Made by a program: the position numbers and the translations under genes
The notes under the pieces: model-generated
What the model was told of the DNA's origin: nothing
What the model saw: only the letters and a program-made list of their open reading frames with translations
Databases searched by the model: none
Shown here: piece by piece, positions 6,072-31,688 of the stretch
Layout: each line of letters starts with the position of its first letter
Position numbering within the stretch: position 1 is the stretch's first letter
Source: Candidatus Omnitrophota bacterium
GTDB lineage: Bacteria > Omnitrophota > Gorgyraeia > JAFGHF01
Reading direction: 5' to 3'
Assembly: GCA_042571705.1 (NCBI GenBank)
Contig: JBHPFV010000001.1
Location: 110,630 to 174,629, forward strand
Length of the DNA stretch: 64,000 nucleotides

Positions 6072-6088
6072 CGTAGAGCGTAAAGTTA

Positions 6089-6676: not shown

Positions 6677-6692
6677 ATCAGCAAAAGAGGAG

Positions 6693-7283: not shown

Positions 7284-7384
7284 TCCGTTTTCGGAATCGA
7301 GGAGTGTCGAAATAATTTAGCTCATAGAGGAGGGGTGTATCTTTTTGTTTGAAATTTGGCAAGGATAGTGGTATAATTCTTACT

Positions 7385-8409: not shown

Positions 8410-8414
8410 AGTTT

Positions 8415-9236
8415 ATGCTAGATAAAAAAAGCGCAGTTTGTTTGCTGACCATCTTGGCCTGCTTTTTTTTATTTGCTGATCAGCCCCAAGCCGCGGTCAA
8501 GATGAATGTCGACCCTCCCCGGGTGGAAATAACTATGGCGCCGGGTCAGGAGCAGGGCGGGCAGATCTCAATATTTAACCACGACCAGACCGGGCCGATC
8601 CATGTCAAGGCCTATGTCAATGATTTGGTCTATCTGCCCGACGGAAGCAATGACTTCTTAGCCAGCGGGACTACGCCCTGGAGCGTGGCCGACTGGGTCA
8701 AGATCAGCCCGACTGAATTCGAGGTGCCGCCGGGTGAGCCGAAGCAGGTGCGTTATATAGTGGAGATCCCCCCTGGCGCCCAGGGCGGAAGATACGGGGT
8801 GGTCTTCTTTGAGATTTCACCTAGACTCCAGGAGCTGAAAGATAAGACCGGGGCGGCGGTAAATTTAAGAATCGGCTCGATTTTTTTGCTGGTAGCCAAA
8901 GGCACAGAAGTAAATAGCGCCGAGTTAATCGACTTAAAAGTCGGCTCAGCGGACGCCGCTGGCAGCTTTGCGATATCCTGCAATATCAGAAATGACAGTA
9001 ATATCCTGGTCCGGCCATTTGGCACAGTAAAGATACTCAGTGACGCCAGCACCGAGCTGGCTGAAGTAATGATCAATGAATCAAAGTCCGGGGTCTTGCC
9101 GGGCACCAGCAGGCAATTTTCAGCTACTTACGATCAAACCAAGCTTGCTCCAGGTGAATATTCGGCGCTGGCGGTTTTAGACTACGGAGGAGAGGTTTTA
9201 TTGGGCGGACAATCCCGATTTACTATTAGTAGGTAG
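8415..9236 (+). CDS. secreted two-domain Ig-like protein, periplasmic-chaperone-like (PapD-like or DUF916/DUF3324-like)
   Basis: 273 aa with a signal peptide (…DQPQA-AV). It has two beta-sandwich-like halves. The first (VDPPRVEITMAPGQEQGGQISIFNHDQTGPIHVKAYVND...) has the 'V.P....l.pG....v.v.N' pattern of pilus chaperones and DUF916. It sits directly after the four subunit genes. Confidence 0.5.
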   Translation: MLDKKSAVCLLTILACFFLFADQPQAAVKMNVDPPRVEITMAPGQEQGGQISIFNHDQTGPIHVKAYVNDLVYLPDGSNDFLASGTTPWSVADWVKISPTEFEVPPGEPKQVRYIVEIPPGAQGGRYGVVFFEISPRLQELKDKTGAAVNLRIGSIFLLVAKGTEVNSAELIDLKVGSADAAGSFAISCNIRNDSNILVRPFGTVKILSDASTELAEVMINESKSGVLPGTSRQFSATYDQTKLAPGEYSALAVLDYGGEVLLGGQSRFTISR

Positions 9237-9261
9237 GGAGTAGGGGTTAGGTCAAAAAACA

Positions 9262-9297
9262 AGGGGGCTAAAAATCAGGCGGCCTCCTATTTTTTTT
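9262..9297 (+). terminator. intrinsic terminator-like hairpin plus T-run
   Basis: AGGGGG (9262-9267) pairs with CCTCCT (9283-9288, one G-U), followed by T8 (9290-9297) and preceded by an A-run. Confidence 0.45.
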
Positions 9298-9326
9298 GTC
9301 ACTTTGACGAAAAAGTAAAAATATCC

Positions 9327-9355
9327 TTGACAAAGTAACTATTTTATTGTATTTT
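9327..9355 (+). promoter_or_regulatory. sigma70-like promoter (TTGACA-17 nt-TATTTT with TG)
   Basis: TTGACA at 9327-9332, TG at 9348-9349, TATTTT at 9350-9355. Confidence 0.5.
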
Positions 9356-9409
9356 TAAGTATAGGTAACTAAAAGTAAGTTTAAGGGGTACTATAGTGAG
9401 GATAATATA

Positions 9410-16271: not shown

Positions 16272-19200
16272 ATGAGAAAGATTAGCAAGAGTTTAGTCTG
16301 TTGTCTGATCTGGGTAGTCGTATTTATTATATCTGCCGCAGGCTTAGTAGCGGCCGATAGCTACTCAGATTATTTTTTAGAGGACAACGAACAGGAATTT
16401 GTCACTCCGGAGAATATTCGTGAGTTGGCCCGGATTCATTATTCTCGGGCCAGAGAGTTTTACCGCCGCGGGGAATATACCCAGGCCCGTAGAGAGTTTT
16501 CCGAGGTGCTCAAATATGACCCCAGGCATCAAGGCGCCCAGTGGTATTTGGAGGCCATCCAGCAGGAAATAGCCAAGCACGGCGTGAGCCCAATGCAGGT
16601 TGGTGAGTCAGGCCGGTTGACAAAATCAAAGAGCTTACAGCAAGCGTTAGATACAGTTGAAGGCAGCGACAATCAGGTTCGCGAACAGAAGGCTAAGCAG
16701 CAGGCGATTATCGATGCTGAGGAGAAAATGCAAGAGCAAAAGAGCCGGCGCTGGCGTAGCCAGGATCACAAAAGCAGGCTTAAATATCAGAAACAGCGTA
16801 AACAGCAACAAGCCCAGGCAGTTAAAGAAGCAATCGACGACCATCTGATCCAGGCCAAATACTTTTACCAAGAGGGCGATTTTGCTCAAGCTGAACAGGA
16901 ATGCCAACAGGCCCTGGAGCTGGATCCTAAAAATAAAGAGATTCGTAGCCTCCTGCAGAAGATTGCCCGGGCTAAAAGCCGGATCGCGGAACAAAAGCGC
17001 AAGACCAAAAGAGAAGCGGCCCTGCAGGCTCAAGCAAAATTAAGAAAGGAAAAAGCGCTTCGAACAAAGAAAGAAAGATCGGAGCAACTTAAGGCCAAAA
17101 AAGATAATCAAGAGCTAGAGCAGAAGATCAGGCTGCATTATAACCAAGGCAAGAAACATTTTAAAAATAAAGACTATATTGCCGCGCGTAAAGAATTTAA
17201 AGACATCTTGATTTTTGATCCCAAGAATAAATATGCCTTAAATGCCATAGAAAAAGTAGAAGCCACGATCCGAAAAGAAGAAAGGGAGGCTGAGCAAAAG
17301 CGGCGCCAGGAGGAAAAGCTGGCAGCCAAGCAGCGCAAAGAAACTATCGCCCAACATTTCGGCCAGGGTAAGATTTATGTTCATGAGAGAAAATATACTC
17401 AGGCCTTGGAAGAATTTAAGCAGGTTTTAATCCTTGATCCGGGTAATACCACAGCGGAAAAATTTATTATAGAATGCCGTAAACTATTGGTTAAGTCTCA
17501 GCGCCTGAAGAAAGAACACTTAAGTAAAGTCAAGCAGGCCGAGAAACAGGCCTTAAGGCAGGCCCAGCAGGAGTTAGCCAATCGGGCTGAGCAAAAGGCC
17601 CGCGAGGAAGAACGGGCCAGGCTAGAAGCCGAGCAAGAAACGAAAAAGCAACGCCAGGAAAAGATCAAGCAGCATCTGGCTCAGGGCAAAATTTACTGGC
17701 ATCAAAACCAATACGCCCAGGCTGTTGAAGAACTGAAACAGGTTCTAATTCTTGAGCCGGATCATCGCAGCGCCGAAAAACTACTTTTAAAGAGCAAGAA
17801 ACGCGTCGCCCTCGCCCAGCGCCGCGAACAAGAGCGCCTGGAAAAAGACAAGCAACGCCAGGCCCAGGCCTGGCGCCGCGAACAAGAGCGTCTGGAAGAA
17901 GAAAAACAACGCCAGGAGCGTGAGGCCGAGCGCGAAGCTGAGCAGGCTAGAATCGAGGCTGAACAAGCCAAAATCAAGGCTGAGAAAAAAGCCCAGGAAC
18001 AAAAACGCCAAAAAGAGTTGGCCCGGCAAAAACAGCTCAAAGAAACAATCAACTTTCATCTTGAAGGAGCCAAACATTACTTTAATCTACAGGAATTTGA
18101 CCAAGTTAAAGCTAAGCTTGATCAGGTGTTTAAACTCGATCCCGCAAACAAAACAGCCCGCCAATATCTATCCAGGATCGAGCAGACCATCAGGGAACAA
18201 GAGCGGGCTGAGGTTTTAGCTGAGCGCAAAGAAAAGCAACGCCAGGCCCAGGCCTGGCGCCGCGAACAAGAGCGTCTGGAAAAAGAAAAACAACGCCAGG
18301 AGCGTGAGGCCGAATTAGCCAGGATTAAGGCTGAAAAAGAAATTGAGCTTGCCAGAATCAAGGCTGAGAAAGAAGAGCGTTTGCGTCAAGAACGCTTAGA
18401 AAAAGAAAAGCAACGCCAAGAACGCGAGGCCGAACTCGCCAGAATCAAGGCTGAGCGCGAAGCTGAGCAAACCAGAATCGAGGCCGAGAAAGAGGTCCGG
18501 CTGGCTAAGATTAAAGCTGAGAAAGAAGAACGCCTGCGTCAACAGCTCCTGGCGAAAGAAAAGCAACGCCAAGAACGTCAGACCAAGCTAGCCAGGATCA
18601 AGGCCGAGAAAGAAGCTCAGGAACAAAAACGTCAAAAAGAGTTAGCCCGGCAAAAACAGCTCAAAGAAAAAATCAACTTTCATCTTGAAGGAGCCAAACA
18701 CAACTTTAATCTGCAGCAATTCGACCAGGTTAAAGCTAAGCTTGATCAGGTGTTTAAACTCGATCCCGCAAACAAAGCGGCCTACAAATATCTATCCAGG
18801 ATCGAGCAGACCATCAGGGAACAAAAGCAGGCTAAGGTTTTAGCTGAGCGTACAGAAAAACAGCGCCAGCTGCGTGAAGAGCTCCTGCGCAAAAAACGCG
18901 CAGCCGACACCCAACGCCGCGAACAAGAACGCCTGGTAGAAGAAAAGCGCCAAGCTAAACTTGAGGCTGAACTAGCCAGACAAAAAAGGCGCGAAAAAAC
19001 AATAGCGCGCTTCTTAACTCAAGGAAAAGTTTATTTTCATCAGGAAAAATATAAACAGGCGCTCAAAGAATTTAAGCAAGTTTTAATTGTCGACCAGGAT
19101 CATCCCCAGGCAGAAAAATATATCTTAAAATGCAGCAAGGCTATAGCCAGAGTCCAGCGCCGCGAACAGGAACGCCTGGCGAAAGAAAAACAGCGCCGGG

Positions 19201-22200
19201 AACAGGAGGCTGAAGCAGCCAGGATCAAGGCTGAGAAAGAAGCCCGACTAGCCAGGATCAAGGCCGATAAAGAGGCCCAGGAACAAAAACGCCAAAAAAG
19301 ACTAGCCCAACAGCGCCAGCTGGCCGAAAAGATCAATTTTCATCTCACCCAAGGGAAATATCATCTCCAGGAGCAGAAGTTCGACCTGGCTAAGCAGGAA
19401 TTTGGTAAGGTCCTTTTTCTGGACCACAACAACCAACCCGCCCAAAAATACCTGAGCCGGATGGAAAAGGCAGTTAAGCAACAAGCAGCTGCCCAAGCCC
19501 TCACTCAGCGCCGCGAACAAGAGCGCCTGGCAAAAGAAAAACAGCTCCGGGAACAGGAGGCTGAAGCAGCCAGGATCAAGGCTGAGAAAGAAGCCCGACT
19601 AGCCAAGATCAAGGCCGATAAAGAGGCCCAGGAACAAAAACGCCAGGAACAAGAAGCCCAGCAGCGCCAGCTAGCCGAAAAAATCAATATCCACCTCGAA
19701 GAAGGCAAATACTACTTTAAGGAGCAGGAATTCGCCCAGGCCCGATCAGAGTTTAAGCAAGTCCTGGCCCTGGACTTCAAAAACAAAACCGCCCGTGATT
19801 ATATCCATAAAATCGAAAAGAACTTAAAACAGGACCTGCCCCAATTTTCAGCCGCCGGAAAACTAGATACTAGCCGCGAAGTCAGGTTAGACAAGTTAAT
19901 GGCTGAGCAAATGCTGGAGTTGGAACAGACACTCCAGGGCTATCAGGATGTATTAAAAGGTGACCGCCTGGCCCAAAAGGAAGCCCGGCTCGATGACAAA
20001 GTCGCTTTGTATAGAACTAAACTGGCTAAGTTAGAGCAGCAGAAGCTGAAGATCGGGCAGATCGACCCGGATACCTATCAACAGGGCCTAACACTGCAAC
20101 AAGACGCTGAATACAAAAGTCTAGAGTTAAAGCTGACCAATAAGTTACGCCGGGCAAAGACAGAACAGCTGGAGAAGACCTTGCAGGCTGCGCTACAGCG
20201 CAAAGAGGCCGAGATAGGAGAAAAGATCAGGGCCTACGAAGCCAGTATCGATGAACTGAAAAAAGAAAAGGCCCGGCCATTCTATCAACAAGGTTTAGCC
20301 CAGCTTAAGAAGAAACAATACGCTCAAGCCAAAGAAAGCCTGGATAAAGCCCTGTCCATTTACCCTGATTATCAGCGTGCCAGAACAGCTCGCGAACAGA
20401 TTGATAATAAAGAGAAGCTGGAGATTTATTTCGTTGATGGCAAAGATCATTTTGAAAACCAGGAGTATGAGCAAGCTAGAAAGAAATTCGAAAAGATAGT
20501 TGAGCTTGATTATAATCATCAGCCGGCGCGAAAATATTTATCCCAGATTAAAGAACAACAACGGCGTTGGACAGAAAAGCAGCGCCAGGCCCAAGATCAG
20601 GCGGTAATCGAGGCCCAGAAAAAATTAGCTAAACAAAAGCAGCGCCAGCTAGCCGAAAAAATCAATATCCACCTCGAAGAAGGCAAATACTACTTTAAGG
20701 AGCAGGAATTCGCCCAGGCCCGATCAGAGTTTAAGCAAGTCCTGGCCCTGGACTTCAAAAACAAAACCGCCCGTGATTATATCCATAAAATCGAAAAGAA
20801 CTTAAAACAGGACCTGCCCCAATTTTCAGCCGCCGGAAAACTAGATACTAGCCGCGAAGTCAGGTTAGACAAGTTAATGGCTGAGCAAATGCTGGAGTTG
20901 GAACAGACACTCCAGGGCTATCAGGATGTATTAAAAGGTGACCGCCTGGCCCAAAAGGAAGCCCGGCTCGATGACAAAGTCGCTTTGTATAGAACTAAAC
21001 TGGCTAAGTTAGAGCAGCAGAAGCTGAAGATCGGGCAGATCGACCCGGATACCTATCAACAGGGCCTAACACTGCAACAAGACGCTGAATACAAAAGTCT
21101 AGAGTTAAAGCTGACCAATAAGTTACGCCGGGCAAAGACAGAACAGCTGGAGAAGACCTTGCAGGCTGCGCTACAGCGCAAAGAGGCCGAGATAGGAGAA
21201 AAGATCAGGGCCTACGAAGCCAGTATCGATGAACTGAAAAAAGAAAAGGCCCGGCCATTCTATCAACAAGGTTTAGCCCAGCTTAAGAAGAAACAATACG
21301 CTCAAGCCAAAGAAAGCCTGGATACAGCGCTGTCTATTTACCCTGACTACCAGCCGGCCAAAGACGCCCGGGAACAGATTGATACTGAGGAGAAAGTCCA
21401 GTGGCATCTTGCCCAAGGCGAATATTATCTTGGGAAACAAGAGTACGCCCGGGCGCGATTAGAGTTTGAAAAAGTTTTCAAATTAGACTACAGAAACCAA
21501 CAGGCCAAAGATTCGCTGAACAAGATTAACAGCCAAGTCCGAGAGGTAGCGACTGCCCAAGCGCAAGCGAGAAAAGAGGAAACAGCGCGCCGGCAGCAGG
21601 CAAAAATAAATTTTCATCTTAATCAGGGCAAATACTTCTTTGTTGAAGAAAAATATAGCCAGGCCAGATCAGAGCTTAAGAAGGTCCTGGCCTTAGACAG
21701 CACAAACAAACCGGCCCAAGACTATTTAAGCAAAGTTGGCAAAGCGGCCAAGGAAAACGCCCGTGCTGAAGTCATGGCCAGGGCTGAGGAAAAACAGCGC
21801 CGGCAGGAACAATTGCGTCTAGCTAAGATTAAAGCAGGGCAGCTAGCCAAAGAGAAAAGGCGCCAGGAGGAATTGGCCAAGAAACGCGAGCTGGAAAGAA
21901 GGGTTGATTTTCACCTGGCCCAGGGCCGCTATCTTCTCAGCCAGGAAAATTACGCTATGGCCAAAGAAGAATTTAATAAAATCCTGGCCTTGGATTTCGA
22001 GAACAAACAGGCCGAAAGGTATTTAAATAAAATTACCGAAATAGTTGAGAAAGAAAAGCGCAATGAACAGCTGGCCAGAGAGAAAGCAAGGCAACGCCGG
22101 GCCAAAGAAACCGCCGAGAAAAAGCGCCAGGAGGAATTGGCCCGGGAACGGGAGCTGGAAAAAAGGATCGCTATTTACATCAGAAAGGGCAGGCTCTACT

Positions 22201-24689
22201 ATGATCAACAAAAATACGAGCAGGCCCAGATGCAGTTTAATAGTGCCCTGAACTTAGACCATAAAAATAGATTAGCTAACAGCTACTTGCAGAAAATTCA
22301 GGCACAGCGAGAGCGCTTCGAGAAAGAGCAGCAACGAGCCATTGTCTTGGCCGAGGAGAGATTAAAGCAGGAACAAAAGCGAAAAGAGAAAGAAACCGCT
22401 GAGCAAGAGCGCCAGAAGCAATTGGTCAAGAAGCGCGAACTGGAAAAAAAGATTAAATTTCACCTGGTCCAGGGCCACTACTGCTTTAGCCGTCAAGACT
22501 ACGCTCTAGCCCGAAAAGAATTTAATAAAATCCTGGCCTTGGATTTCGAGAACAAACAGGCCGAAAGGTATTTAAATAAAATTACCGAAATAGTTGAGAA
22601 AGAAAAGCGCAATGAGCAGCTGGCCAGAAAGAAAGCTAAGCAACGCCGGGCCAAAGAAGCCGCCGAGCAAGAGCGCCAGAAGCAATTGGCCAAGAAACGC
22701 GAGCTGGAAAGAAGGGTTGATTTTCACCTGGCCCAGGGCCGCTATCTTCTCAGCCAGGAAAATTACGCTATGGCCAAAGAAGAATTTAATAAAATCCTGG
22801 CCTTGGATTTCGAGAACAAACAGGCCGAAAGGTATTTAAATAAAATTACCGAAATAGTTGAGAAAGAAAAGCGCAATGAACAGCTGGCCAGAGAGAAAGC
22901 AAGGCAACGCCGGGCCAAAGAAACCGCCGAGAAAAAGCGCCAGAAGCAATTGGCCAAGGAACGCGAGCTGGAAAGAAGGATTGATTTTCACCTGGCCCAG
23001 GGCCGCTACTACTTAAGCCGGCAAGACTACGCTCTGGCCAAAAAAGAATGCGATAAGGCGCTGGTTTTAGATTACCAAAATAAGCGGGCTAAAAAATACT
23101 TAAATAAAATTGCCAAGGCAATGGAAGCAGAAGCTCGGCAAGAGGTGTTAGCTAAAAAAAGTAAATTGGAAAAAAAGGTTAGCGTTCATCTTGACCAGGG
23201 CAAGGCTTACTTGCTAGAAGTAGACTATCAAAATGCGATCAGAAAGTTCAGCCAGGTTTTAGTGTTGGACCAGGACAATAAGCAGGCCCAAAAATATTTG
23301 AATAAAATTGCCAAAGCAATTGAGGCCGAAGCGCAGGTCAAAAAACAGACCCTCGCCCAGCGCCGCGAACAGGAGCGCCTGGAAAAAGAAAGACAGCGCC
23401 AAGAGAACATTAATCAGCATCTGGCTCAGGGAAAGATTTACTTTCACCAGGGCAAGCACCAAGAGGCGATTGCCGAATTTGGCAAGATTTTGTTTTTTGA
23501 TCCTGAACACGCTGATGCCGAGCAGTATATGTTACGTTCTAAACAAGTCTTTTCCAGAGATAAGCCTCAACAGCAGCTTGACCAGAAAACGGTGCAGGAA
23601 CAGCGCCAGCGCGAACAGGTGCAGACCAAGCTGCTGGAAGGGCAGATGACTAAGCTTAAACAGGTGTTAGAAGAATATGAACAGGCCCTGGAGGAGAAAC
23701 TGGCGCAAAAAGAAGTTGTCTCCTCTCCGCGATTTGCCAAATTTGAGTCCCGGGCCACTCAATTAGAAGAGGAAAAGCAGAAAATTGAGCTGGAGATCGT
23801 CCGCGAAGAAGCGGAGCTAAAAATGGCTCAGCAAGAACGAGAGAAACTTGAGACTGAATTAGGGCAGCTGCGCCAGGAACAAGAACAGTCAATAATCGAA
23901 GAATGGCAAAAATATCAAGTGAGTTTTCAGAATGAATTTGAGCGGCTGACGCAGAAAGAAGCCGAACTCGAACAAAAGATTAAAGATTACGAAGCTAAGA
24001 TAGAACAGCTGCAAATGTTTCCCTCTGTTGCCGTCGTCGCCCCGGCAGCCCGCGGCGTTGAATATGAGCCGCAATACTTAGTTGGCGACGCCGAAGCAGC
24101 GGATGGTTTAAAAGAAAAGGCCGCCCCAGCTGATAGTGTAGAGACAATTATGCTTAAACTGAAGATGGAACAATTGCATAATCAGGTCGAAGGCTTGATG
24201 CAGGAAAAAGCCAAGCCGTTTTACGAACGCGGCCGGACCCATTTAAAGAAGGAAAGATATGCCCAAGCCAGAGATGATCTTGAGCAGGCCCTAGCTATTT
24301 ATCCTAACTATACGCAGGCCCAGCGGGCGATTGATGCAATTGAACAGGTGGAGAAGATCGAGATCCATCTTTCCGAAGGTAAATTCTATTATGGCGAAAA
24401 AAACTATCAAAAAGCCAAACAGGAATTCACTAACGCCCTGGAGTTAGATTACAAACATAGAGAAGCCCGTAAATATCTGCGTCGGATAGAGAAGGCGCTG
24501 AAGGATGGAAAATCCGGTCCGCGGGAAAAGAGGAGATCCGTCTCCAGTCGGGAAACCAGGGAGCTTGAGCAAAAAAGACTCAAAGATATTAAAGACTTTT
24601 ATGAAAAAGGAAAATTTTATTTTGGTCAAGGCCTCTATCAAGAAGCCGTGGTTTGTTTTGAGAAAGTTATTGAATTAGAAAAGCAGTAG
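16272..24689 (+). CDS. giant (2805-2820 aa) exported repeat protein: about 26 isolated TPR-like units separated by E/R/K/Q-rich helical spacers
   Basis: A single uninterrupted ORF. ATG 16272 gives MRKISKSLVCCLIWVVVFIISAAGLVAA-DS (signal peptide or anchor); the ORF also opens at 16227. The recurring unit is I.FHL..GKYYF....Y..A..EF..VL.LD..N..A..YL.KI, alternating with tracts such as RREQERLEKEKQRQEREAELARIKAEKE. Confidence 0.85.
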   Translation: MRKISKSLVCCLIWVVVFIISAAGLVAADSYSDYFLEDNEQEFVTPENIRELARIHYSRAREFYRRGEYTQARREFSEVLKYDPRHQGAQWYLEAIQQEIAKHGVSPMQVGESGRLTKSKSLQQALDTVEGSDNQVREQKAKQQAIIDAEEKMQEQKSRRWRSQDHKSRLKYQKQRKQQQAQAVKEAIDDHLIQAKYFYQEGDFAQAEQECQQALELDPKNKEIRSLLQKIARAKSRIAEQKRKTKREAALQAQAKLRKEKALRTKKERSEQLKAKKDNQELEQKIRLHYNQGKKHFKNKDYIAARKEFKDILIFDPKNKYALNAIEKVEATIRKEEREAEQKRRQEEKLAAKQRKETIAQHFGQGKIYVHERKYTQALEEFKQVLILDPGNTTAEKFIIECRKLLVKSQRLKKEHLSKVKQAEKQALRQAQQELANRAEQKAREEERARLEAEQETKKQRQEKIKQHLAQGKIYWHQNQYAQAVEELKQVLILEPDHRSAEKLLLKSKKRVALAQRREQERLEKDKQRQAQAWRREQERLEEEKQRQEREAEREAEQARIEAEQAKIKAEKKAQEQKRQKELARQKQLKETINFHLEGAKHYFNLQEFDQVKAKLDQVFKLDPANKTARQYLSRIEQTIREQERAEVLAERKEKQRQAQAWRREQERLEKEKQRQEREAELARIKAEKEIELARIKAEKEERLRQERLEKEKQRQEREAELARIKAEREAEQTRIEAEKEVRLAKIKAEKEERLRQQLLAKEKQRQERQTKLARIKAEKEAQEQKRQKELARQKQLKEKINFHLEGAKHNFNLQQFDQVKAKLDQVFKLDPANKAAYKYLSRIEQTIREQKQAKVLAERTEKQRQLREELLRKKRAADTQRREQERLVEEKRQAKLEAELARQKRREKTIARFLTQGKVYFHQEKYKQALKEFKQVLIVDQDHPQAEKYILKCSKAIARVQRREQERLAKEKQRREQEAEAARIKAEKEARLARIKADKEAQEQKRQKRLAQQRQLAEKINFHLTQGKYHLQEQKFDLAKQEFGKVLFLDHNNQPAQKYLSRMEKAVKQQAAAQALTQRREQERLAKEKQLREQEAEAARIKAEKEARLAKIKADKEAQEQKRQEQEAQQRQLAEKINIHLEEGKYYFKEQEFAQARSEFKQVLALDFKNKTARDYIHKIEKNLKQDLPQFSAAGKLDTSREVRLDKLMAEQMLELEQTLQGYQDVLKGDRLAQKEARLDDKVALYRTKLAKLEQQKLKIGQIDPDTYQQGLTLQQDAEYKSLELKLTNKLRRAKTEQLEKTLQAALQRKEAEIGEKIRAYEASIDELKKEKARPFYQQGLAQLKKKQYAQAKESLDKALSIYPDYQRARTAREQIDNKEKLEIYFVDGKDHFENQEYEQARKKFEKIVELDYNHQPARKYLSQIKEQQRRWTEKQRQAQDQAVIEAQKKLAKQKQRQLAEKINIHLEEGKYYFKEQEFAQARSEFKQVLALDFKNKTARDYIHKIEKNLKQDLPQFSAAGKLDTSREVRLDKLMAEQMLELEQTLQGYQDVLKGDRLAQKEARLDDKVALYRTKLAKLEQQKLKIGQIDPDTYQQGLTLQQDAEYKSLELKLTNKLRRAKTEQLEKTLQAALQRKEAEIGEKIRAYEASIDELKKEKARPFYQQGLAQLKKKQYAQAKESLDTALSIYPDYQPAKDAREQIDTEEKVQWHLAQGEYYLGKQEYARARLEFEKVFKLDYRNQQAKDSLNKINSQVREVATAQAQARKEETARRQQAKINFHLNQGKYFFVEEKYSQARSELKKVLALDSTNKPAQDYLSKVGKAAKENARAEVMARAEEKQRRQEQLRLAKIKAGQLAKEKRRQEELAKKRELERRVDFHLAQGRYLLSQENYAMAKEEFNKILALDFENKQAERYLNKITEIVEKEKRNEQLAREKARQRRAKETAEKKRQEELARERELEKRIAIYIRKGRLYYDQQKYEQAQMQFNSALNLDHKNRLANSYLQKIQAQRERFEKEQQRAIVLAEERLKQEQKRKEKETAEQERQKQLVKKRELEKKIKFHLVQGHYCFSRQDYALARKEFNKILALDFENKQAERYLNKITEIVEKEKRNEQLARKKAKQRRAKEAAEQERQKQLAKKRELERRVDFHLAQGRYLLSQENYAMAKEEFNKILALDFENKQAERYLNKITEIVEKEKRNEQLAREKARQRRAKETAEKKRQKQLAKERELERRIDFHLAQGRYYLSRQDYALAKKECDKALVLDYQNKRAKKYLNKIAKAMEAEARQEVLAKKSKLEKKVSVHLDQGKAYLLEVDYQNAIRKFSQVLVLDQDNKQAQKYLNKIAKAIEAEAQVKKQTLAQRREQERLEKERQRQENINQHLAQGKIYFHQGKHQEAIAEFGKILFFDPEHADAEQYMLRSKQVFSRDKPQQQLDQKTVQEQRQREQVQTKLLEGQMTKLKQVLEEYEQALEEKLAQKEVVSSPRFAKFESRATQLEEEKQKIELEIVREEAELKMAQQEREKLETELGQLRQEQEQSIIEEWQKYQVSFQNEFERLTQKEAELEQKIKDYEAKIEQLQMFPSVAVVAPAARGVEYEPQYLVGDAEAADGLKEKAAPADSVETIMLKLKMEQLHNQVEGLMQEKAKPFYERGRTHLKKERYAQARDDLEQALAIYPNYTQAQRAIDAIEQVEKIEIHLSEGKFYYGEKNYQKAKQEFTNALELDYKHREARKYLRRIEKALKDGKSGPREKRRSVSSRETRELEQKRLKDIKDFYEKGKFYFGQGLYQEAVVCFEKVIELEKQ
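19660..21324 (+). repeat. two nucleotide-perfect 687-bp direct copies inside the giant gene (19660-20346 and 20638-21324; period 978 nt = 326 codons)
   Basis: Base-by-base comparison of the two stretches found no mismatch. The flanks differ at 19659/20637 and 20347/21325. Confidence 0.85.
21871..22943 (+). repeat. two perfect 260-bp direct copies (21871-22130 and 22684-22943; period 813 nt = 271 codons) plus a third ~100-bp perfect partial copy (22516-22615)
   Basis: Direct comparison. All copies are in frame and encode VDFHLAQGRYLLSQENYAMAKEEFNKILALDFENKQAERYLNKITEIVEKEKRNEQ... Confidence 0.8.
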
Positions 24690-24730: not shown

Positions 24731-25366
24731 ATTTTTAGGGCTATTTTAATTGTATCTTTTGTTTTTGTTTTTGTCGCACCGGTTGAGGTGTTTGGAGAAA
24801 TTGTGGATACAGGTTTTGAGAATCGCCATACTTACCGCGTGGATACGCGCAGCGACGACGATGATTACAGTTTTTACATCACCCGGGCCGCAGGCTATCT
24901 GGATTTCAATTGCCCGCTATTAGAAAGGACTTTCCGGATTGCCCCTTTTTTTGAATATCAGTCTAATCTTGATACCAATACTTGGTGGCGTAAAGAGCTG
25001 GGCGCGGAGATTGGCACCAGTTTCTTCAACGATATTTTTTACTACGGCGCCTCACTGCAATATGTCTGGCAGAAGCTGGACAATTACCCCGTTGAAGATA
25101 CCACCGAGACTGCTGAGTGGGAATCCCGGTTTGTGATTACTCCGCCGATAAATTGGTGGATTTTTGGCGACACATTATTTTTGCGGCTGTTTAATGAATA
25201 TACCGTTGATCTTGAACGCGGCCAAGGCACATTTAATCAAGTCGGGGTAGTCTTTGACTGGCAGGTTTTGGATTGGTTGCGGCTGCCGATTGGTTACCGG
25301 CATGTAGACCGAGTGCACGATTACGACGCCGACACCTTGGAATTCTCTGTTGTGTTTAGCTTTTGA
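24731..25366 (+). CDS. small outer-membrane beta-barrel protein; probable non-canonical ATT start
   Basis: The frame is open from 24713, and the first canonical start (GTG 24788) would remove the hydrophobic N-terminus. ATT 24731 lies 7 nt after GAGG (24720-24723) and yields MFRAILIVSFVFVFVAPVEVFG... The protein has alternating strand patterns and ends ...TLEFSVVFSF (OMP C-terminal Phe). Confidence 0.45.
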   Translation: MFRAILIVSFVFVFVAPVEVFGEIVDTGFENRHTYRVDTRSDDDDYSFYITRAAGYLDFNCPLLERTFRIAPFFEYQSNLDTNTWWRKELGAEIGTSFFNDIFYYGASLQYVWQKLDNYPVEDTTETAEWESRFVITPPINWWIFGDTLFLRLFNEYTVDLERGQGTFNQVGVVFDWQVLDWLRLPIGYRHVDRVHDYDADTLEFSVVFSF

Positions 25367-25400: not shown

Positions 25401-25763
25401 ATGTTAGCCGATTTCTTAGAGAAAAGAAGGCATTCCAGGTTTGATTTGCGGGTTCCTTTGCGTTATCGCAGGATTCAGTCCGCCACGCAGGAATTTAAAG
25501 GCTCGCTGATAAAAGACTTAAGCCAAGGGGGACTAAGAATAGGCACCTTTGAATTTTTGCCGATTAACTTAAGGCTGGCCATGGAGATACCTTTGATCGC
25601 GGGGCTGAAGTCAGTTGAAGGTACAGCTCGGGTGGCTTGGGTGAAGAAGTCAAATTCAAGCCAGCAGTATGATGTGGGAGTAGAGTTTGAGAGCCTCAAC
25701 CATGGCGACCAGCAACAGATTACCAAGTTTCTTTACGCACGTTCGGAAGAAAAACCGGTTTAA
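25401..25763 (+). CDS. stand-alone PilZ domain protein (c-di-GMP receptor type)
   Basis: ATG 25401 follows GGGGAGAAAGGGGA. Both canonical motifs are present: KRRHSRF (RxxxR) and DLSQGGLRI (DxSxxG). Confidence 0.75.
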   Translation: MLADFLEKRRHSRFDLRVPLRYRRIQSATQEFKGSLIKDLSQGGLRIGTFEFLPINLRLAMEIPLIAGLKSVEGTARVAWVKKSNSSQQYDVGVEFESLNHGDQQQITKFLYARSEEKPV

Positions 25764-28458: not shown

Positions 28459-30015
28459 ATGCAAAGCAAATCCTTAATTAAATCCGCGCGGGTGATTGGT
28501 TTGGCCACCTTGGCCAGCCGGATCTTAGGCTTTACCCGTGACGTCATCATTGCTAAGTTGTTCGGTACCGGGGTTCGGGCTCAGGCCTTTGTGGTCGCTT
28601 TTAGGATTCCTAATCTCTTACGCCGGCTGGTTGGGGAAGGCAGCACTAATAGCGCGGTAGTGCCTGTTTTGGCCCGGCTCCATCAACAAGACCGGCACCA
28701 TGAGTTTTGGCAGGTGGCCGGCTGTCTTTTGAATGTCTTGCTGGTGTTCTTGGCGGTGTTGACATTATTAGGCGAGCTGTTTGCGCCCTATATTGTGCGA
28801 ATTCTGGCCCCCGGCTTTATGCAGGATCCGGCAAAATTAGACCTGACCATCCGGATGACCAGGTTTATGTTTCCTTATCTGCTTTTGGTGGGTTTATCGG
28901 CCTACGCGATGGCAGTATTAAATTCTTTAAAGCATTTTAGCTTACCGGCCCTGGCCCCTTGCATGCTGAACATCAGTTTGATTGTGGCCAGCTTATTGCT
29001 TTGCCCGCGACTGGCTGAGCCGGTTGACGGTCTGGCTTGGGGGGTATTAATCGGCGGATTTTTGCAGCTGGCTATTCAGGTGCCTTTACTGATTAAAAAA
29101 GGTTTATTTAAAGAGAAAAGCTCTGGATTTATTCATCCCCGGGTCAAGGAGATCGGCAGGTTATTCCTGCCGCGCACCTTAGGTATCGCGGTTTACCAGG
29201 CCAATATCTTTATTGACAGTATCTTGGCTTCTTTGGCCTGGATTGCCGGCCAGGGGGCGGTAGCGGCGCTCTATTTCGCCAGCCGTCTGGTGCAGTTTCC
29301 CTTGGCCTTGTTTGGCTTGGCTTTGGCCCAGGTGGTTTTGCCGGCCTTATCCGGAATGGCGGCGCAAAAAGACTTTGTTCAATTGAAAAACACAGTTTCT
29401 TTTTCGCTGCGCAGCGTATTGATCATGATGGTTCCGGCCACGGTGGGGATGATGGTTTTGGCCCGTCCGTTAATTTATATCTTATTTGAGCGGGGAAGTT
29501 TTTCCAGCTATTCTACAGACATGACCGCCGCGGTATTATTGTTTTATTGCCTGGGCTTGACTTGTTATGCCGGCATAAAAATATTAGCCTCATGTTTCTA
29601 TTCGCTTAAAGACACCTTTACTCCGGTGAAGATCGCTTTCTTTTCCTTATTAATTAATTTAGTCTTGAATCTGATTTTAATGCGTCCGCTTCAGGTAGCC
29701 GGATTAGCTTTAGCTACGGCGATCGCGGCCGGTTTTAACATGCTGATGCTTTTATCTATTTTAAGTAAAAAAGTGGGCTCGTTTGGCGAGCTACGGCCGA
29801 CTTTAAAAAAAGTAATTATCGCCGCATTTTGTATGGGCGCGGTAATATGGTTTTTCTTTTATCAGACCCAGGTGCTCACGGCCACAAAGCTCCTGCTGAG
29901 TGTAAAATTGTGCATTTCTATTTTGTTGGGGATCAGCACCTATCTAGCGATGTTAAAGATTATTGATCCGGAGGCAGCCGAGTTATTTTACAGATGGATA
30001 TTAAAAAGAAAGTAA
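28459..30015 (+). CDS. murJ: lipid II flippase MurJ (MviN)
   Basis: MQSKSLIKSARVIGLATLASRILGFTRDVIIAKLFG... with a multi-TM MOP-family profile. TTG 28450 is an alternative start. Confidence 0.85.
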   Translation: MQSKSLIKSARVIGLATLASRILGFTRDVIIAKLFGTGVRAQAFVVAFRIPNLLRRLVGEGSTNSAVVPVLARLHQQDRHHEFWQVAGCLLNVLLVFLAVLTLLGELFAPYIVRILAPGFMQDPAKLDLTIRMTRFMFPYLLLVGLSAYAMAVLNSLKHFSLPALAPCMLNISLIVASLLLCPRLAEPVDGLAWGVLIGGFLQLAIQVPLLIKKGLFKEKSSGFIHPRVKEIGRLFLPRTLGIAVYQANIFIDSILASLAWIAGQGAVAALYFASRLVQFPLALFGLALAQVVLPALSGMAAQKDFVQLKNTVSFSLRSVLIMMVPATVGMMVLARPLIYILFERGSFSSYSTDMTAAVLLFYCLGLTCYAGIKILASCFYSLKDTFTPVKIAFFSLLINLVLNLILMRPLQVAGLALATAIAAGFNMLMLLSILSKKVGSFGELRPTLKKVIIAAFCMGAVIWFFFYQTQVLTATKLLLSVKLCISILLGISTYLAMLKIIDPEAAELFYRWILKRK

Positions 30016-31385
30016 AAAATTTTCCCGATTCACCGGGCGTGTATTTAATGAAAGACACAGACGGTGAGATTCTTTACGTGGGCAAGGCCTGTTCGTTAAG
30101 AAAACGGGTCGGTTCTTATTTTCAGAAACCACCCACGGCCAAGACCCAAGAACTCATCCGGCGCTCTCGCGATATCGAATACCTTGCGACCTCCTCCAGC
30201 GCCCAGGCGCTGTTGTTGGAAAATATCTTAATCAAAAGGCATCAGCCTTTTTATAACGCCGCGCTCAAAGACGATAAAAGTTATCCCTATGTAAAAATCA
30301 GCGCCGATGAATATCCGGGTATCTCCATTGTCAGGGGAGAAAAAGTAAAAGGGGCGCGTTATTTCGGTCCTTACACCAGCGTCAAGTTGTTGAAAACAGC
30401 CTTAAAGGCCATCCGTCCGCTATTTCCTTTTCGCAGCTGCCGCCGGCTGCCGAAAAAACCCTGCCTTTATTTTCAGCTTAAACTTTGTCCGGGGATCTGC
30501 GCTGGGAAAGTTGAGCCTGGGGCCTACCGCGATACTTTAAGGCAGTTGGAACTTTTTCTTGAAGGCCGGCACAATGAATTGCTGCGCCATTTGCAGGATC
30601 AGATGCGGCAGGCCGCTGGCTTGAAGCAGTTTGAGCAGGCCGCTAAGTTAAGAGACAGGATAAATTCTTTGGTTGAGATTATTTCTCAGACCAAGCAGCC
30701 CAGTGGCGCCGATTTAATTGTCGAGTTGCAAAAGACCTTAGGCCTGTCTGAGCCGCCATATCGAATTGAGGCCTTTGATATCTCCGAAATCTCCGGGGCC
30801 GGTTTATCCGGCTCGATGGTTAGTTTCTTATCCGGCTGGCCGGACAAGAACAATTATCGCAAATTTAAGATCAGGACAGTCAAAGGAATTGATGATTACG
30901 CGATGATCGCCGAGCTGCTGCGGCGTCGCTACGCCCCGGAAAAAAGAAAAGTTAACTCACCCTTGCCGGACTTAGTGATTATTGACGGCGGAAAAGGACA
31001 TCTCAACTTGGCCCAAAAGACCTTGAAAACCTTGGGCCTAACTGAACTTCCGGTGATTGCCTTAGCCAAGCGCTTAGAGACTATTTACGCTTGCGGCGGT
31101 AAGGTAATTAATTTACCCGGAGATTCAAAGTTACTGCATCTTTTGCAAAGGATTCGCGATGAGGCCCATCGCTTCGCGATTTCTTATCATCATAAATTAA
31201 GGGAGAAATCTCTGCGTCAGTCGGCGCTGGATGGCATCGGCGGTGTGGGAGAAAAGAGAAAAAAACTGCTGCTGCGCCATTTTAAAACCGTCTCGGCGCT
31301 TAAACAAGCGAGCCGGGCGCAGTTACTAAAAGTAAAAGGGATCGACCTCCGGACCGCCGAAAATATCAGTAAACATTTTAAATGA
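29994..31385 (+). CDS. uvrC: excinuclease ABC subunit C (compact, 463 aa)
   Basis: GIY-YIG (PGVYLMKDTDGEILYVGKA), UVR motif (FEQAAKLRDRINSL), RNase H-like endonuclease region (RIEAFDIS...VIIDGGKGHL) and a C-terminal (HhH)2. Confidence 0.85.
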   Translation: MDIKKKVKNFPDSPGVYLMKDTDGEILYVGKACSLRKRVGSYFQKPPTAKTQELIRRSRDIEYLATSSSAQALLLENILIKRHQPFYNAALKDDKSYPYVKISADEYPGISIVRGEKVKGARYFGPYTSVKLLKTALKAIRPLFPFRSCRRLPKKPCLYFQLKLCPGICAGKVEPGAYRDTLRQLELFLEGRHNELLRHLQDQMRQAAGLKQFEQAAKLRDRINSLVEIISQTKQPSGADLIVELQKTLGLSEPPYRIEAFDISEISGAGLSGSMVSFLSGWPDKNNYRKFKIRTVKGIDDYAMIAELLRRRYAPEKRKVNSPLPDLVIIDGGKGHLNLAQKTLKTLGLTELPVIALAKRLETIYACGGKVINLPGDSKLLHLLQRIRDEAHRFAISYHHKLREKSLRQSALDGIGGVGEKRKKLLLRHFKTVSALKQASRAQLLKVKGIDLRTAENISKHFK

Positions 31386-31388
31386 ACA

Positions 31389-31688
31389 ATGAAACAATCA
31401 GATTTTGAAACCAAGGTTTTTAAGGCCGTGACCCAGATCCCGTTTGGCCAGACCCGCAGCTATAAGTGGCTGGCAAAGCGGGCCGGCTACCCGCGGGCAG
31501 TGCGGGCGGCGGCCTCTGTTTTGAAAAAGAACCGCGACTTATTTGTGGTGCCTTGCCACCGGGTGATCAGCTCAGACGGCTCGCCCGGCGGCTATGTCTT
31601 AGGCCAGAAAATAAAAAAGATGCTTCTCGACCTCGAGCATGCTATAATAATCAAGCAAGAAAGTTACAGGAGAAGGAAGGGAAGGTAA
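31389..31688 (+). CDS. ogt: methylated-DNA--protein-cysteine methyltransferase, DNA-binding/catalytic domain only
   Basis: 99 aa with the active-site motif VPCHRVI. Its stop overlaps the prfB ATG (TAATG). Confidence 0.7.
   Translation: MKQSDFETKVFKAVTQIPFGQTRSYKWLAKRAGYPRAVRAAASVLKKNRDLFVVPCHRVISSDGSPGGYVLGQKIKKMLLDLEHAIIIKQESYRRRKGR

What the first reader, a model, noticed from the sequence alone, without database searches (positions are those of the whole stretch)
19660..22943. Nucleotide-perfect, in-frame segmental duplications inside the giant gene (687 bp x2, 260 bp x2, ~100 bp third copy)
Seen:
- 19660-20346 is identical to 20638-21324 (687 bp, offset 978 nt = 326 codons).
- 21871-22130 is identical to 22684-22943 (260 bp, offset 813 nt = 271 codons).
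- 21967-22066 also recurs at 22516-22615.
- Older, diverged copies exist further upstream, e.g. ~18027 versus ~18651 (offset 624 nt).

Inference: zero divergence over 687 bp implies very recent duplication or ongoing gene conversion. It makes the locus a hotspot for RecA-mediated expansion and contraction, which would give length-variable protein isoforms in the population. It is also exactly where short-read assemblies mis-estimate copy number.
Basis: seen in the sequence. Interest (0 to 1): 0.55.

Follow-up and report, generated by a model that had tools for sequence, protein, structure and literature searches.

The report
Recently homogenised repeats in a TPR-array gene
A 2,820-residue exported repeat protein of an uncultured Omnitrophota bacterium carries letter-perfect, in-frame internal copies (687, 260 and 100 bases). 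They are real and are best explained by patches recently copied between older repeat units, a known way for repeat genes to evolve and one that also breaks short-read assemblies.

Summary
19660-20346 = 20638-21324 (687/687), 21871-22130 = 22684-22943 (260/260), and 21967-22066 = 22516-22615 = 22780-22879 (100/100). All are maximal, and all offsets are multiples of 3.

They lie in ORF 16227-24689. It encodes a signal-peptide protein of 26 isolated TPR units separated by E/K/Q/R-rich helical linkers, plus three coiled-coil "M" modules.

A single fresh tandem duplication is excluded:
- Each exact tract is shorter than its offset (687 vs 978; 260 vs 813).
- The homologous 207 nt just after the 687-nt tract are saturated at synonymous sites (pS 0.87).
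- The 264-nt units are mosaics.

Gene conversion among paralogous modules (concerted evolution) fits best.

An independent short-read MAG of the same population (GCA_042569555.1) contains both 687-nt copies and their junction. Its copy A differs at 10 sites. Its contigs break exactly 55 nt inside each outer edge of the 260-nt repeat pair. It also carries a different in-frame allele (+98/-11 codons) of the adjacent repeat region.

A related species has a 1,281-residue ortholog with no near-identical repeats. More distant relatives fuse the same array to a PilQ-type secretin.

Verdict: real, ordinary in kind, a new member of a known phenomenon. The exactness itself cannot be checked without reads.

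The parts
16227..24689 (+). ORF of 2,820 aa (alternative start ATG 16272, 2,805 aa). Exported TPR-array protein: 26 isolated 47-aa TPR-like units, charged helical linkers of 19-161 aa, and three coiled-coil M modules.
   Evidence: ORF list and translation. Pfam TPR_2 at 264 bits, with no secretin or other domain. Unit map by iterated HMM. Composition: E 13.7, K 13.4, Q 12.0, A 11.0, L 9.6, R 9.0 %.
16272..16361 (+). N-terminal signal peptide or signal anchor (MRKISKSLVCCLIWVVVFIISAAGLVAADS).
   Evidence: Read directly from the translation: basic n-region followed by a 20-residue hydrophobic core. The MAG gene call starts here. No predictor was run.
19660..20346 (+). Exact tract X, copy A (687 nt; aa 1146-1374). 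It runs from 6 residues before TPR unit 10, through the 149-aa coiled-coil insert, to the middle of TPR unit 11.
20638..21324 (+). Exact tract X, copy B (687 nt, offset 978 = 326 codons).
   Evidence: Identical to MAG copy B.
20347..20637 (+). 291-nt spacer between the copies: the rest of TPR 11, TPR 12 and linker b. Its first ~210 nt are an anciently diverged homolog of 21325-21531.
   Evidence: Identity profile at offset 978 drops 30 -> 24 -> 22 -> ~15 of 30. pS 0.87 (saturated), dN 0.36.
19680..20555 (+). M module 1: TPR, 149-aa coiled-coil insert, TPR doublet.
   Evidence: The AF2 single-sequence model is all-helical but low-confidence (pLDDT 56).
20658..21533 (+). M module 2.
   Evidence: aa 1545-1788 align to P0002 aa 278-581.
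23406..24494 (+). M module 3, an old and diverged third copy.
   Evidence: aa 2519-2762 align to the single M module of the secretin-fused homolog P0002 (35% identity, E 8.5e-35).
21852..23126 (+). Array of five 88-aa units of TPR plus linker: U1 21852, U2 22116 (285 nt), U3 22401, U4 22665, U5 22929 (198 nt). U6 follows at 23127-23324.
   Evidence: TRF period 264, 4.5 copies, 72% matches. Unit alignment.
21871..22130 (+). Exact 260-nt tract, copy 1 (U1 position 20 through position 15 of U2).
   Evidence: MAG contig 10 ends at 21925, 55 nt into it.
22684..22943 (+). Exact 260-nt tract, copy 2 (U4 position 20 through position 15 of U5). The first 19 nt of U4 are U3-like.
   Evidence: MAG contig 44 starts at 22889, 55 nt before its end.
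22516..22615 (+). 100-nt patch in U3 identical to U1 (21967-22066) and U4 (22780-22879), inside a unit that is otherwise 86-88% identical to them.
   Evidence: An identical run of >=100 given 36 differences in 264 positions occurred in 0 of 200,000 permutations.
17844..19741 (+). Older repeat generations: 17844-17929 / 18228-18313 (98%), 17966-18245 / 18590-18869 (91%, dS 0.28), 19155-19390 / 19506-19741 (86%, dS 0.41), and a 153-nt tandem at 18300-18605 (73%).
18575..20123 (+). Segment where the otherwise identical MAG carries a different in-frame allele: 83 substitutions in ungapped blocks, +294 nt, -33 nt, including 10 differences in copy A of X.

Best explanation
The exact tracts are footprints of recent non-reciprocal homologous recombination (gene conversion) between paralogous modules of one repeat-array gene. 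In other words, this is concerted evolution acting on units that first duplicated long ago. A stretch of one module (at least 687 nt of M module 2 or 1; at least 260 nt of unit U1 or U4; at least 100 nt into U3) was copied over its diverged counterpart. The most likely route is repair or template switching on a misaligned sister copy. This leaves letter-perfect, in-frame patches with sharp edges.

Shown: the patches, their mosaic pattern, their recency, and that the two-copy architecture exists in an independent assembly.

Inferred:
- The enzymology (RecA-type homologous recombination).
- That the resulting 687-nt and 260-nt direct repeats are now substrates for in-frame loss or gain of 326- or 271-codon blocks.

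The gene product is an exported, all-helical 'beads on a string' TPR array. It is the stand-alone counterpart of the N-terminal periplasmic array that relatives fuse to a PilQ-type secretin or a TolC-like channel. Module number probably sets its length or valency rather than any catalytic property.
For: (a) Each tract is shorter than its offset: 687 vs 978, 260 vs 813, 100 vs 549/264. One unequal crossover would give tract length equal to offset.

(b) There is an abrupt change of age at the tract edge. There are 0 differences over 143 synonymous sites inside X, but pS 0.87 and dN 0.36 in the next 207 homologous nt.

(c) The 264-nt units are mosaics. U4 = U3(1-19) + U1(20-264). U3 carries a 100-nt patch identical to U1/U4 in an 86% background, which occurred in 0 of 200,000 permutations.

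(d) The repeats form a ladder of ages (dS 0, 0.28, 0.41, 0.43-0.51, saturated), which indicates a continuing process.

(e) The independent MAG GCA_042569555.1 contains both X copies and the junction with the same boundaries. Its copy B equals both window copies. Its copy A differs at 10 sites, 7 at codon position 3 and 6 of the 10 synonymous. So X is not invariant in nature, and the within-genome identity (0/687) is tighter than the between-allele difference (10/687).

(f) The MAG contigs end and start exactly 55 nt inside the outer edges of the 260-nt pair. That is the signature of a k=55 graph branching at those same repeat boundaries in another data set.

(g) The ortholog in a related species has 13 units in 1,281 aa and no internal repeat above 71% identity, so the homogenised copies are lineage-specific and recent.

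(h) Long exact internal repeats recur sporadically in the wider family: 4 of 154 relatives have an exact peptide repeat of >=90 aa.
Against: - No reads are available, so the perfect identity of the two copies in this assembly is unverified.
- The 5' edge of the 687-nt tract abuts sequence with no detectable homology at that offset (7 of 30). Only the 3' edge shows the classical 'conversion inside older homology' picture.
- The MAG differs from the window in several other ~3% patches (28510-31556, 47790-48809). Its divergent copy A may therefore be part of an imported or chimeric strain tract. It cannot give the direction of conversion, and it does not show whether the other strain's two copies are also homogenised.
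- RecA dependence and copy-number variants of the 978-nt unit were not observed.
Confidence: 0.7

Rival explanations
1. Assembly or polishing artefact. The genome has two similar but not identical copies (as in the MAG), or a different copy number. The assembler, consensus step or manual curation wrote the same sequence twice.
For: No read data could be examined. The MAG's copy A differs from copy B at 10 sites while the window shows none. The window carries at least one odd local structure that the MAG lacks: mlaF is interrupted by an inverted copy of its own 3' end. This shows that the two assemblies can differ structurally.
Against: The two-copy layout, the junction 20347-20637/20638 and both tract boundaries are reproduced in an independent short-read assembly. 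The k=55 contig breaks fall at exactly the outer boundaries of the 260-nt repeat. The ORF stays open, every offset is a multiple of 3, and all ten sites carry the copy-B state rather than a mixture. An artefact would change 'identical' to about 98.5% identical, not the biology.
Confidence: 0.12
2. One or two very recent plain duplications (unequal crossover or replication slippage) with no conversion. The exact tracts would simply be the newly made copies.
For: Zero divergence. In-frame offsets. The units are arranged head to tail, so misalignment is easy.
Against: A single unequal exchange duplicates a block as long as its offset. Here 291 of 978 nt and 553 of 813 nt between the copies are not duplicated, and they are old (pS 0.87; U2 is ~60% identical to U1/U4). 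After U4 comes U5, not a copy of U2. The sequence before copy A is unrelated to that before copy B.
Confidence: 0.08
3. A selected, quasi-programmed variation system. Internal modules would serve as donor cassettes to diversify or resize a host-contact protein of an episymbiotic nanobacterium, as in the cassette-based antigenic variation of pilin or surface proteins.
For: The only strongly divergent, indel-bearing allele difference found between two otherwise mostly identical genomes lies in this gene's repeat region (6.6% plus +98/-11 codons). Its substitutions are enriched at third codon positions (47/83, p = 1e-5), so it is an evolved allele, not noise.
Against: Conversion here makes copies more alike, not more diverse. 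Other ~3% patches occur in ordinary housekeeping genes of the same pair of genomes, so patchy recombination is genome-wide. No recombinase, invertase or reverse transcriptase was found among the ORFs scanned. The differences involve all four bases, so they are not adenine-specific.
Confidence: 0.05

Closest known systems
Concerted evolution of intragenic repeats in bacterial envelope/surface proteins (e.g. alpha C/Rib of group B streptococci, SasG/Aap G5-E repeats, M proteins) - from general knowledge, not tested here
   Same: Nucleotide-identical, in-frame repeat blocks of hundreds of bases inside one large exported protein gene. Homologous recombination between them keeps them identical and changes copy number. 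They are a notorious cause of short-read assembly breaks.
   Different: Here the identical blocks are not head-to-tail identical units. They are partial patches (687 of 978 nt, 260 of 813 nt) laid over old, diverged units. The modules are helical TPR/coiled-coil units rather than Ig-like beta domains. The host is a Gram-negative-type Omnitrophota bacterium, and the protein is probably periplasmic or outer-membrane-associated rather than a wall-anchored adhesin.
RecA-dependent gene conversion between dispersed bacterial paralogs (e.g. tufA/tufB in Salmonella, rRNA operons) - from general knowledge
   Same: Non-reciprocal copying gives tracts of perfect identity with sharp edges, flanked by older divergence.
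   Different: Those cases involve separate genes kept identical under strong functional constraint. Here both partners are modules of one ORF, and synonymous variation is tolerated.
Amuc_1098 family / PilQ-type type IV pilus secretins with an N-terminal TPR region (NCBIfam NF042912); Omnitrophota TPR-array-STN-Secretin proteins P0002-P0005, P0022
   Same: The repeat units match positions 30-257 of NF042912 (E 1e-30). The N-terminal head and the M module align with P0002. The downstream neighbours are the same as those of the secretin-fused gene in L011: a conserved 192/240-aa protein (59% identical), PilZ, BamD, LptE, holA, rpsT, murJ, uvrC.
   Different: There is no STN, Secretin_N or Secretin domain. 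The score is 106 bits against a cut-off of 750. Upstream there is a PilZ-ROK protein and a coiled-coil protein instead of pilM/N/O/P. The array is about twice as long.
Omnitrophota giant proteins (Archaeovorins, dockerin-type; 10.1101/2023.11.21.568195) and very long proteins (10.64898/2026.06.07.730766)
   Same: Same phylum. The proteins are repeat-rich, and the repeats fragment assemblies.
   Different: This protein is 2.8 kAA against >=10-147 kAA. It has no HEAT, dockerin, TSP3 or enzymatic domains. The 2026 survey reports that strict identical tandems never exceed 10% of a long CDS and concludes that repeats are mostly ancient. Here about 24% of the CDS lies in exact repeats of >=100 nt, but they are dispersed, which a back-to-back detector would miss.

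Membership tests
Intragenic gene conversion / concerted evolution | Exact tract shorter than the distance between copies (not a simple tandem duplication) | tested here: met
   687 vs 978, 260 vs 813, 100 vs 549/264.
Intragenic gene conversion / concerted evolution | Tract embedded in older, diverged homology with an abrupt change in synonymous divergence | tested here: met
   On the 3' side, dS is 0 inside the tract and pS is 0.87 in the next 207 nt. On the 5' side of the 687-nt tract no homology is detectable, so only one edge is informative.
Intragenic gene conversion / concerted evolution | Mosaic units with identical runs longer than expected from overall divergence | tested here: met
   U4 is a U3/U1 hybrid. 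The 100-nt run in U3 occurred in 0 of 200,000 permutations.
Intragenic gene conversion / concerted evolution | Paralogs within a genome more alike than the same unit between strains | tested here: inconclusive
   Window A vs B: 0 differences. Window A vs MAG A: 10 differences. The MAG's copy B lies in a block identical to the window, so whether the other allele's two copies co-vary is unknown.
Intragenic gene conversion / concerted evolution | Dependence on homologous recombination machinery (RecA) | not testable with these tools
   Uncultured organism. Only a RadA/Sms-like gene (50538-51908) was noted from the domain annotations of its MAG counterpart.
TPR repeat proteins (Pfam clan TPR) | Significant matches to TPR profiles above the gathering score | tested here: met
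   TPR_2 264 bits, TPR_1 139 bits, TPR_8 120 bits. 26 units mapped.
PilQ/Amuc_1098-type secretins | C-terminal Secretin domain (PF00263) with STN/Secretin_N | tested here: not met
   No such hit in the 2,820-aa protein, whereas P0002, P0003 and P0022 have it.
PilQ/Amuc_1098-type secretins | NCBIfam NF042912 score above the cut-off | tested here: not met
   106 bits vs 750. Only model positions 30-257 are matched.
PilQ/Amuc_1098-type secretins | Genomic position equivalent to the secretin gene | tested here: met
   Same downstream gene order as L011. The adjacent 192-aa protein is 59% identical to L011's 240-aa protein.
Omnitrophota giant proteins (Archaeovorin / dockerin-type) | Length of tens of thousands of residues with HEAT/enzymatic or dockerin/TSP3 domains | tested here: not met
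   2,820 aa and only TPR profiles. Definitions taken from 10.1101/2023.11.21.568195.
Identical-tandem-repeat surface proteins (Rib/alpha C, G5-E type) | Head-to-tail units that are identical to each other; Rib/G5 domains | tested here: not met
   Adjacent units are 59-88% identical and the identical ones (U1, U4) are not adjacent. No Rib/G5 hits.
Diversity-generating retroelement target | Adenine-specific differences between repeat copies and a nearby reverse transcriptase | tested here: not met
   Differences between alleles involve all four bases. No RT among the ORFs scanned. ORFs beyond 46.6 kb were not all scanned.

The most novel reading that the evidence does not exclude
The gene is a secretin-less, stand-alone descendant of the periplasmic TPR array of a PilQ-type pilus secretin. 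Its length (number of TPR/linker/M modules) would be actively retuned within populations by intragenic recombination. Co-existing cells of one strain would then make envelope- or pilus-associated rods of different length or valency, a rapidly evolving 'ruler' or contact scaffold for an ultra-small, host-dependent bacterium. The 18575-20123 allele difference and the perfect repeats would be two snapshots of that process.
Probability: 0.1. Interest if true: 0.6.

Novelty: new member of a known kind. Interest (0 to 1): 0.3.

Why it matters
The result has three uses.

- **Practical.** It gives a clean, base-resolved example of why short-read MAGs of Omnitrophota truncate large repeat genes: contigs end 55 nt inside an exact repeat. 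It also shows why copy number and copy identity in such genes need long reads.
- **Evolutionary.** At least some Omnitrophota repeat proteins are still being remodelled by recombination. A recent survey of the phylum's much longer (>=10 kAA) genes concluded that their repeats are mostly ancient, but its strict test detected only back-to-back identical copies and would miss the dispersed exact repeats seen here.
- **Functional.** The protein can be placed as the stand-alone form of a TPR array that relatives attach to pilus secretins or TolC-like channels. That gives a testable location (periplasm or outer membrane).

None of this overturns current understanding.

Tried and rejected
- **Exact-product look-ups.** Look-ups of the giant protein with either start codon found nothing, so the window's own assembly is not in the collection.
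- **Scans with the 326-aa duplicated unit.** Back-translated scans of genome contigs and metagenome contigs found no relative.
- **The search for homologous proteins with sub-segments.** Queries with the coiled-coil insert and with the N-terminal 245 aa returned nothing. Both missed the known positive P0001, which contains the insert query exactly and which matched the N-terminal query end to end. These negatives are therefore uninformative.
- **Structure prediction.** AlphaFold2 without an alignment on aa 1140-1480 gave an all-helical model with pLDDT 56. That is too weak for a fold search, so none was run.
- **A reading I abandoned.** I first read the MAG comparison as 'all differences are confined to the repeat region'. 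Extending the comparison showed other ~3% patches in housekeeping genes. I dropped that claim and no longer use the MAG's copy A to infer the direction of conversion.
- **Other explanations checked and rejected.**
  - DGR: the differences are not adenine-specific.
  - Foreign island: GC is 45-49%, as in the flanks.
  - Hidden genes or RNAs on either strand: no minus-strand ORF over 83 aa, and no Rfam or tRNA hit in the gene.
- **PilZ-ROK vs PilM/N.** The PilZ-ROK protein upstream is not detectably related to the PilM/N fusion of L011.
- **L008.** It loses synteny after the 394-aa gene and gave no ortholog.
Full report
**1. Observation**

String comparison confirms the three claims to the base:
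- 19660-20346 = 20638-21324 (687/687).
- 21871-22130 = 22684-22943 (260/260).
- 21967-22066 = 22516-22615 (100/100).

The neighbouring base differs on both sides in every case. An exhaustive scan for exact direct repeats finds the same pairs. It also finds a third 100-nt copy at 22780-22879, which lies inside the second 260-nt copy. Shorter exact runs of 30-59 nt occur at offsets 384, 624 and 351. All offsets are multiples of 3.

Outside this ORF the window has only two exact direct repeats of 25 nt or more (28 and 29 nt), so the phenomenon is specific to this gene.

**2. What the gene is**

The repeats lie in ORF 16227-24689 on the + strand. It is 2,820 aa, or 2,805 aa from the ATG at 16272 that the MAG annotation uses.

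- The N-terminus reads as a signal peptide or anchor (direct reading).
- Pfam finds only TPR profiles, with TPR_2 at 264 bits.
- An HMM iterated from the protein's own units maps 26 isolated 47-aa TPR-like units. They are separated by E/K/Q/R/A-rich linkers of 19-161 aa.
- There are three 'M' modules, each made of a TPR, a 149-170-aa coiled-coil insert and a TPR doublet. They sit at aa 1152-1443, 1478-1769 and 2394-2756.
- A single-sequence AlphaFold2 model of aa 1140-1480 is all helix but has low confidence (pLDDT 56), so only its secondary structure is used.
- No competing ORF over 83 aa, Rfam family or tRNA lies in the region on either strand. GC content matches the flanks.

**3. Relatives and function**

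The only close homolog is a partial 1,972-aa protein, annotated as a tetratricopeptide repeat protein, from a 'Candidatus Omnitrophota bacterium' MAG, GCA_042569555.1.

The next homologs are 32-44% identical. Four of them carry the same kind of array in front of STN/Secretin_N/Secretin domains. The fifth (P0006) is a TPR-only protein.

In the metagenome contig that encodes one of them (P0002, locus L011), the gene order is as follows:
- Upstream: a pilM/N fusion and two small genes.
- Downstream: a 240-aa protein that is 59% identical to the window's 192-aa ORF (24788-25366), then PilZ, BamD, LptE, holA, rpsT, murJ and uvrC.

The downstream order is exactly that of the window. The N-terminal head and the M module of the window protein align with P0002 (E down to 8.5e-35). 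NCBIfam's Amuc_1098 type IV pilus outer-membrane protein model matches the units at positions 30-257, with 106 bits against a cut-off of 750.

An exhaustive search with the N-terminal 245 aa finds 96 proteins at E<=1e-10. I scanned five hits whose best match starts near their own N-terminus. Three are arrays alone (768, 2,043 and 2,915 aa), one is fused to a secretin, and one is fused to a TolC-like OEP domain.

So the protein is the stand-alone form of a periplasmic array that relatives attach to outer-membrane channels. It is not itself a secretin, because no secretin domain is present. A periplasmic or outer-membrane-associated scaffold role is an inference.

**4. Duplication or conversion?**

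A single unequal crossover or slippage event duplicates a block exactly as long as its offset. That is not what is seen here.

*The 687-nt tract.*
- It sits at offset 978.
- The 291 nt between the copies are not duplicated.
- The first ~210 of those 291 nt are homologous to the sequence after copy B but very old. Identity falls 30 -> 24 -> 22 -> ~15 of 30.
- pS is 0.87 and dN is 0.36, against 0 differences over 143 synonymous sites inside the tract.

*The 260-nt tract.*
- It joins non-adjacent units U1 and U4 at offset 813.
- U2 and U3 lie between them, and U2 is only ~60% identical to either.
- U4 starts U3-like for 19 nt, then is U1 for the rest of the unit. The identity runs 15 nt into the next unit, which otherwise is not a copy of U2.

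*The 100-nt patch.*
- U3 is 86-88% identical to U1/U4 but contains a 100-nt perfect patch.
- A run that long given 36 differences in 264 positions did not occur in 200,000 permutations.

*Ages of the repeat pairs.* They form a ladder: dS 0; 0.28; 0.41; 0.43-0.51; saturated.

Together these features are the signature of repeated non-reciprocal exchange among paralogous units, that is, gene conversion or concerted evolution. They do not fit one recent duplication.

The tract edges do not respect domain borders. The 3' edge of X falls in the middle of a TPR unit. This fits a recombination footprint better than selection for a module.

**5. Independent assembly**

Three contigs of GCA_042569555.1 overlap the window.

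*Contig 10.*
- It matches window 6272-18574 and 20124-21925 without a single difference.
- It contains both X copies at offset 978 with the same boundaries.
- Its copy B equals both window copies.
- Its copy A differs at ten sites, seven of them third codon positions and six of the ten synonymous.

*Contig breaks.* Contig 10 ends at window 21925, exactly 55 nt into the first 260-nt copy. Contig 44 begins at window 22889, exactly 55 nt before the end of the second copy. Its first 1,912 nt are identical to the window. I interpret this as the mark of a k=55 de Bruijn graph branching at those repeat boundaries. It means another data set sees the same repeat edges, and it shows directly that short reads cannot cross this array.

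*The variable segment.* Between 18575 and 20123 the MAG carries a different, still in-frame allele:
- 83 substitutions in the ungapped blocks, 47 of them at codon position 3 (p = 1e-5), with 34 synonymous and 33 non-synonymous codon changes.
- A 294-nt longer stretch that includes an extra 120-nt tandem copy and a TPR unit only ~60% identical at the protein level.
- A 33-nt deletion.

**6. A correction to my own first reading**

At first this looked like variation confined to the repeats. Extending the comparison shows that the two genomes are mosaics. Long blocks are 100% identical and are interrupted by patches:
- 28510-31556: 96 differences.
- 47790-48809: 33 differences, about 3%.
- Smaller patches at 34550-34589 and 35440-35710.

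So these are two recombining strains, or the MAG is a strain chimera. The patch in this gene is one of several, although it is the most divergent and the only one seen with large in-frame indels.

Consequently the MAG proves three things:
- The two-copy architecture is real.
- X varies in nature, mostly synonymously.
- Length variants of the neighbouring repeat region exist.

It does not give the direction of conversion. It also does not prove that both copies co-vary in the other strain.

**7. Comparison across species**

A related Omnitrophota MAG (locus L007) has a PilZ-ROK neighbour 65% identical to the window's and shares most of the flanking genes: the coiled-coil protein upstream, and the conserved ~200-aa protein, a 128-aa ORF at the PilZ position and a 319-aa ORF at the BamD position downstream (the last two assigned by size and position only), with two extra membrane-protein genes inserted after the array. 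It has a 234-aa plus a 1,281-aa protein of the same architecture at this position. That is 13 units with no M module, and its best internal nucleotide repeat is 71% identical.

The secretin-fused P0002 gene has internal repeats of at most 82% identity.

Among 154 relatives, only four have an exact internal peptide repeat of 90 aa or more: 206, 125 (the MAG's partial copy of this same gene) and 94 aa, against 228 aa here.

Recent homogenisation is therefore sporadic in the family and lineage-specific here. The window's gene has roughly doubled in unit number relative to its ortholog.

**8. Mechanism and consequences**

*Shown:*
- Recent, patchy, in-frame copying between modules.
- Natural allelic and length variation next to the exact tracts.
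- Assembly failure at the repeats.

*Inferred from established knowledge of bacterial recombination:*
- The copying is RecA-type homologous recombination or template switching on a misaligned sister.
- Direct repeats of 687 and 260 nt are efficient substrates for in-frame deletion or expansion of 326 or 271 codons. Populations should therefore contain 1- and 3-copy variants.

*Not shown:* any such variant of these particular units, and the perfect identity at the level of reads.

**9. Comparison with the literature**

Omnitrophota are known for very large, repeat-rich genes that fragment assemblies (10.1101/2023.11.21.568195). A 2026 survey of genes of 10 kAA or more found that strictly identical back-to-back tandems never exceed 10% of a CDS. 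It concluded that the repeats are mostly ancient (10.64898/2026.06.07.730766).

This gene is much smaller and of a different class, being TPR-only. About 24% of its CDS lies in exact repeats of 100 nt or more: (2 x 687 + 2 x 260 + 100) / 8463. These repeats are dispersed, so a back-to-back detector would not count them.

**10. Verdict**

The finding is real and correctly interpreted. The biology is a familiar one, concerted evolution of intragenic repeats, in an unfamiliar host and protein family. Interest is moderate to low.

The residual uncertainty is whether the two 687-nt copies are truly identical in single molecules. Only long reads can settle that.

Noticed in passing
window 13005-13092 (-), with ORF 12716-12994 (-): A c-di-GMP-I riboswitch (RF01051, 48 bits, full length) lies on the minus strand in a region where all large genes are on the plus strand. 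It sits just upstream of a 92-aa minus-strand ORF with a signal-peptide-like N-terminus, which the MAG annotation also calls. PilZ-domain genes flank the giant gene: PilZ-ROK at 13424-14974 and a 120-aa PilZ at about 25401-25763. The locus therefore looks c-di-GMP-controlled.
   Followed up: partly
window 49496-49560 and 49728-49792 (mlaF-like gene 49037-49814): The MlaF-type ABC ATPase gene is broken into 171-aa and 95-aa ORFs. At 49507-49546 the native 'GGATATCA' stretch is replaced by a net 28-nt longer sequence that is an inverted, 89%-matching copy of the gene's own 3' end. The resulting inverted-repeat arms are 65 nt long and 167 nt apart. The MAG has an intact 249-aa gene. This could be a template-switch (quasi-palindrome) mutation, an invertible-segment remnant or an assembly error.
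   Followed up: partly
window 37913-38149 and 63496-63737: Two intergenic copies (77% identical over 251 nt) of an element that folds into one long imperfect hairpin. For 37905-38160 the MFE is -97 kcal/mol, with z = -7.0 on the + strand and -5.9 on the - strand. There is no Rfam match at E<=0.1. It may be a MITE/REP-like palindromic element or an undescribed structured RNA.
   Followed up: partly
window 28510-31556, 34550-34589, 35440-35710, 47790-48809: Compared with MAG GCA_042569555.1, the window is 100% identical over long blocks but about 3% divergent in discrete patches of roughly 1-3 kb within ordinary genes (murJ/uvrC region, secA/lnt junction, the gene upstream of mlaE). This is a mosaic typical of homologous recombination between co-existing strains, or of a strain-chimeric MAG.
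   Followed up: partly
loci L011 5526-11588; proteins P0002-P0005, P0022, P0092: The same TPR/charged-linker array with the same N-terminal head occurs fused to STN-Secretin (PilQ-like, next to pilM/N) and, in one case, to a TolC-like OEP domain. Periplasmic extensions of 1,000-1,600 aa on outer-membrane channels are unusual and appear undescribed.
   Followed up: partly
window 9410-12715 (+) and 5487-9236 (+): Upstream lie a 1,101-aa protein with TPR, copper-amine-oxidase-N and SdrD_B-like domains, and a run of five or six small (166-273 aa) proteins with no family match apart from one mannanase-GBD hit. They are conserved and 100% identical in the MAG. Their function is unknown, and they may belong to the same envelope locus.
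   Followed up: no
tool behaviour: the search for homologous proteins returned no hits for two sub-segments of the giant protein. P0001 contains the insert query verbatim and matched the N-terminal query over its full length in the exhaustive search. Negatives from that tool for short, compositionally biased queries should not be trusted.
   Followed up: yes
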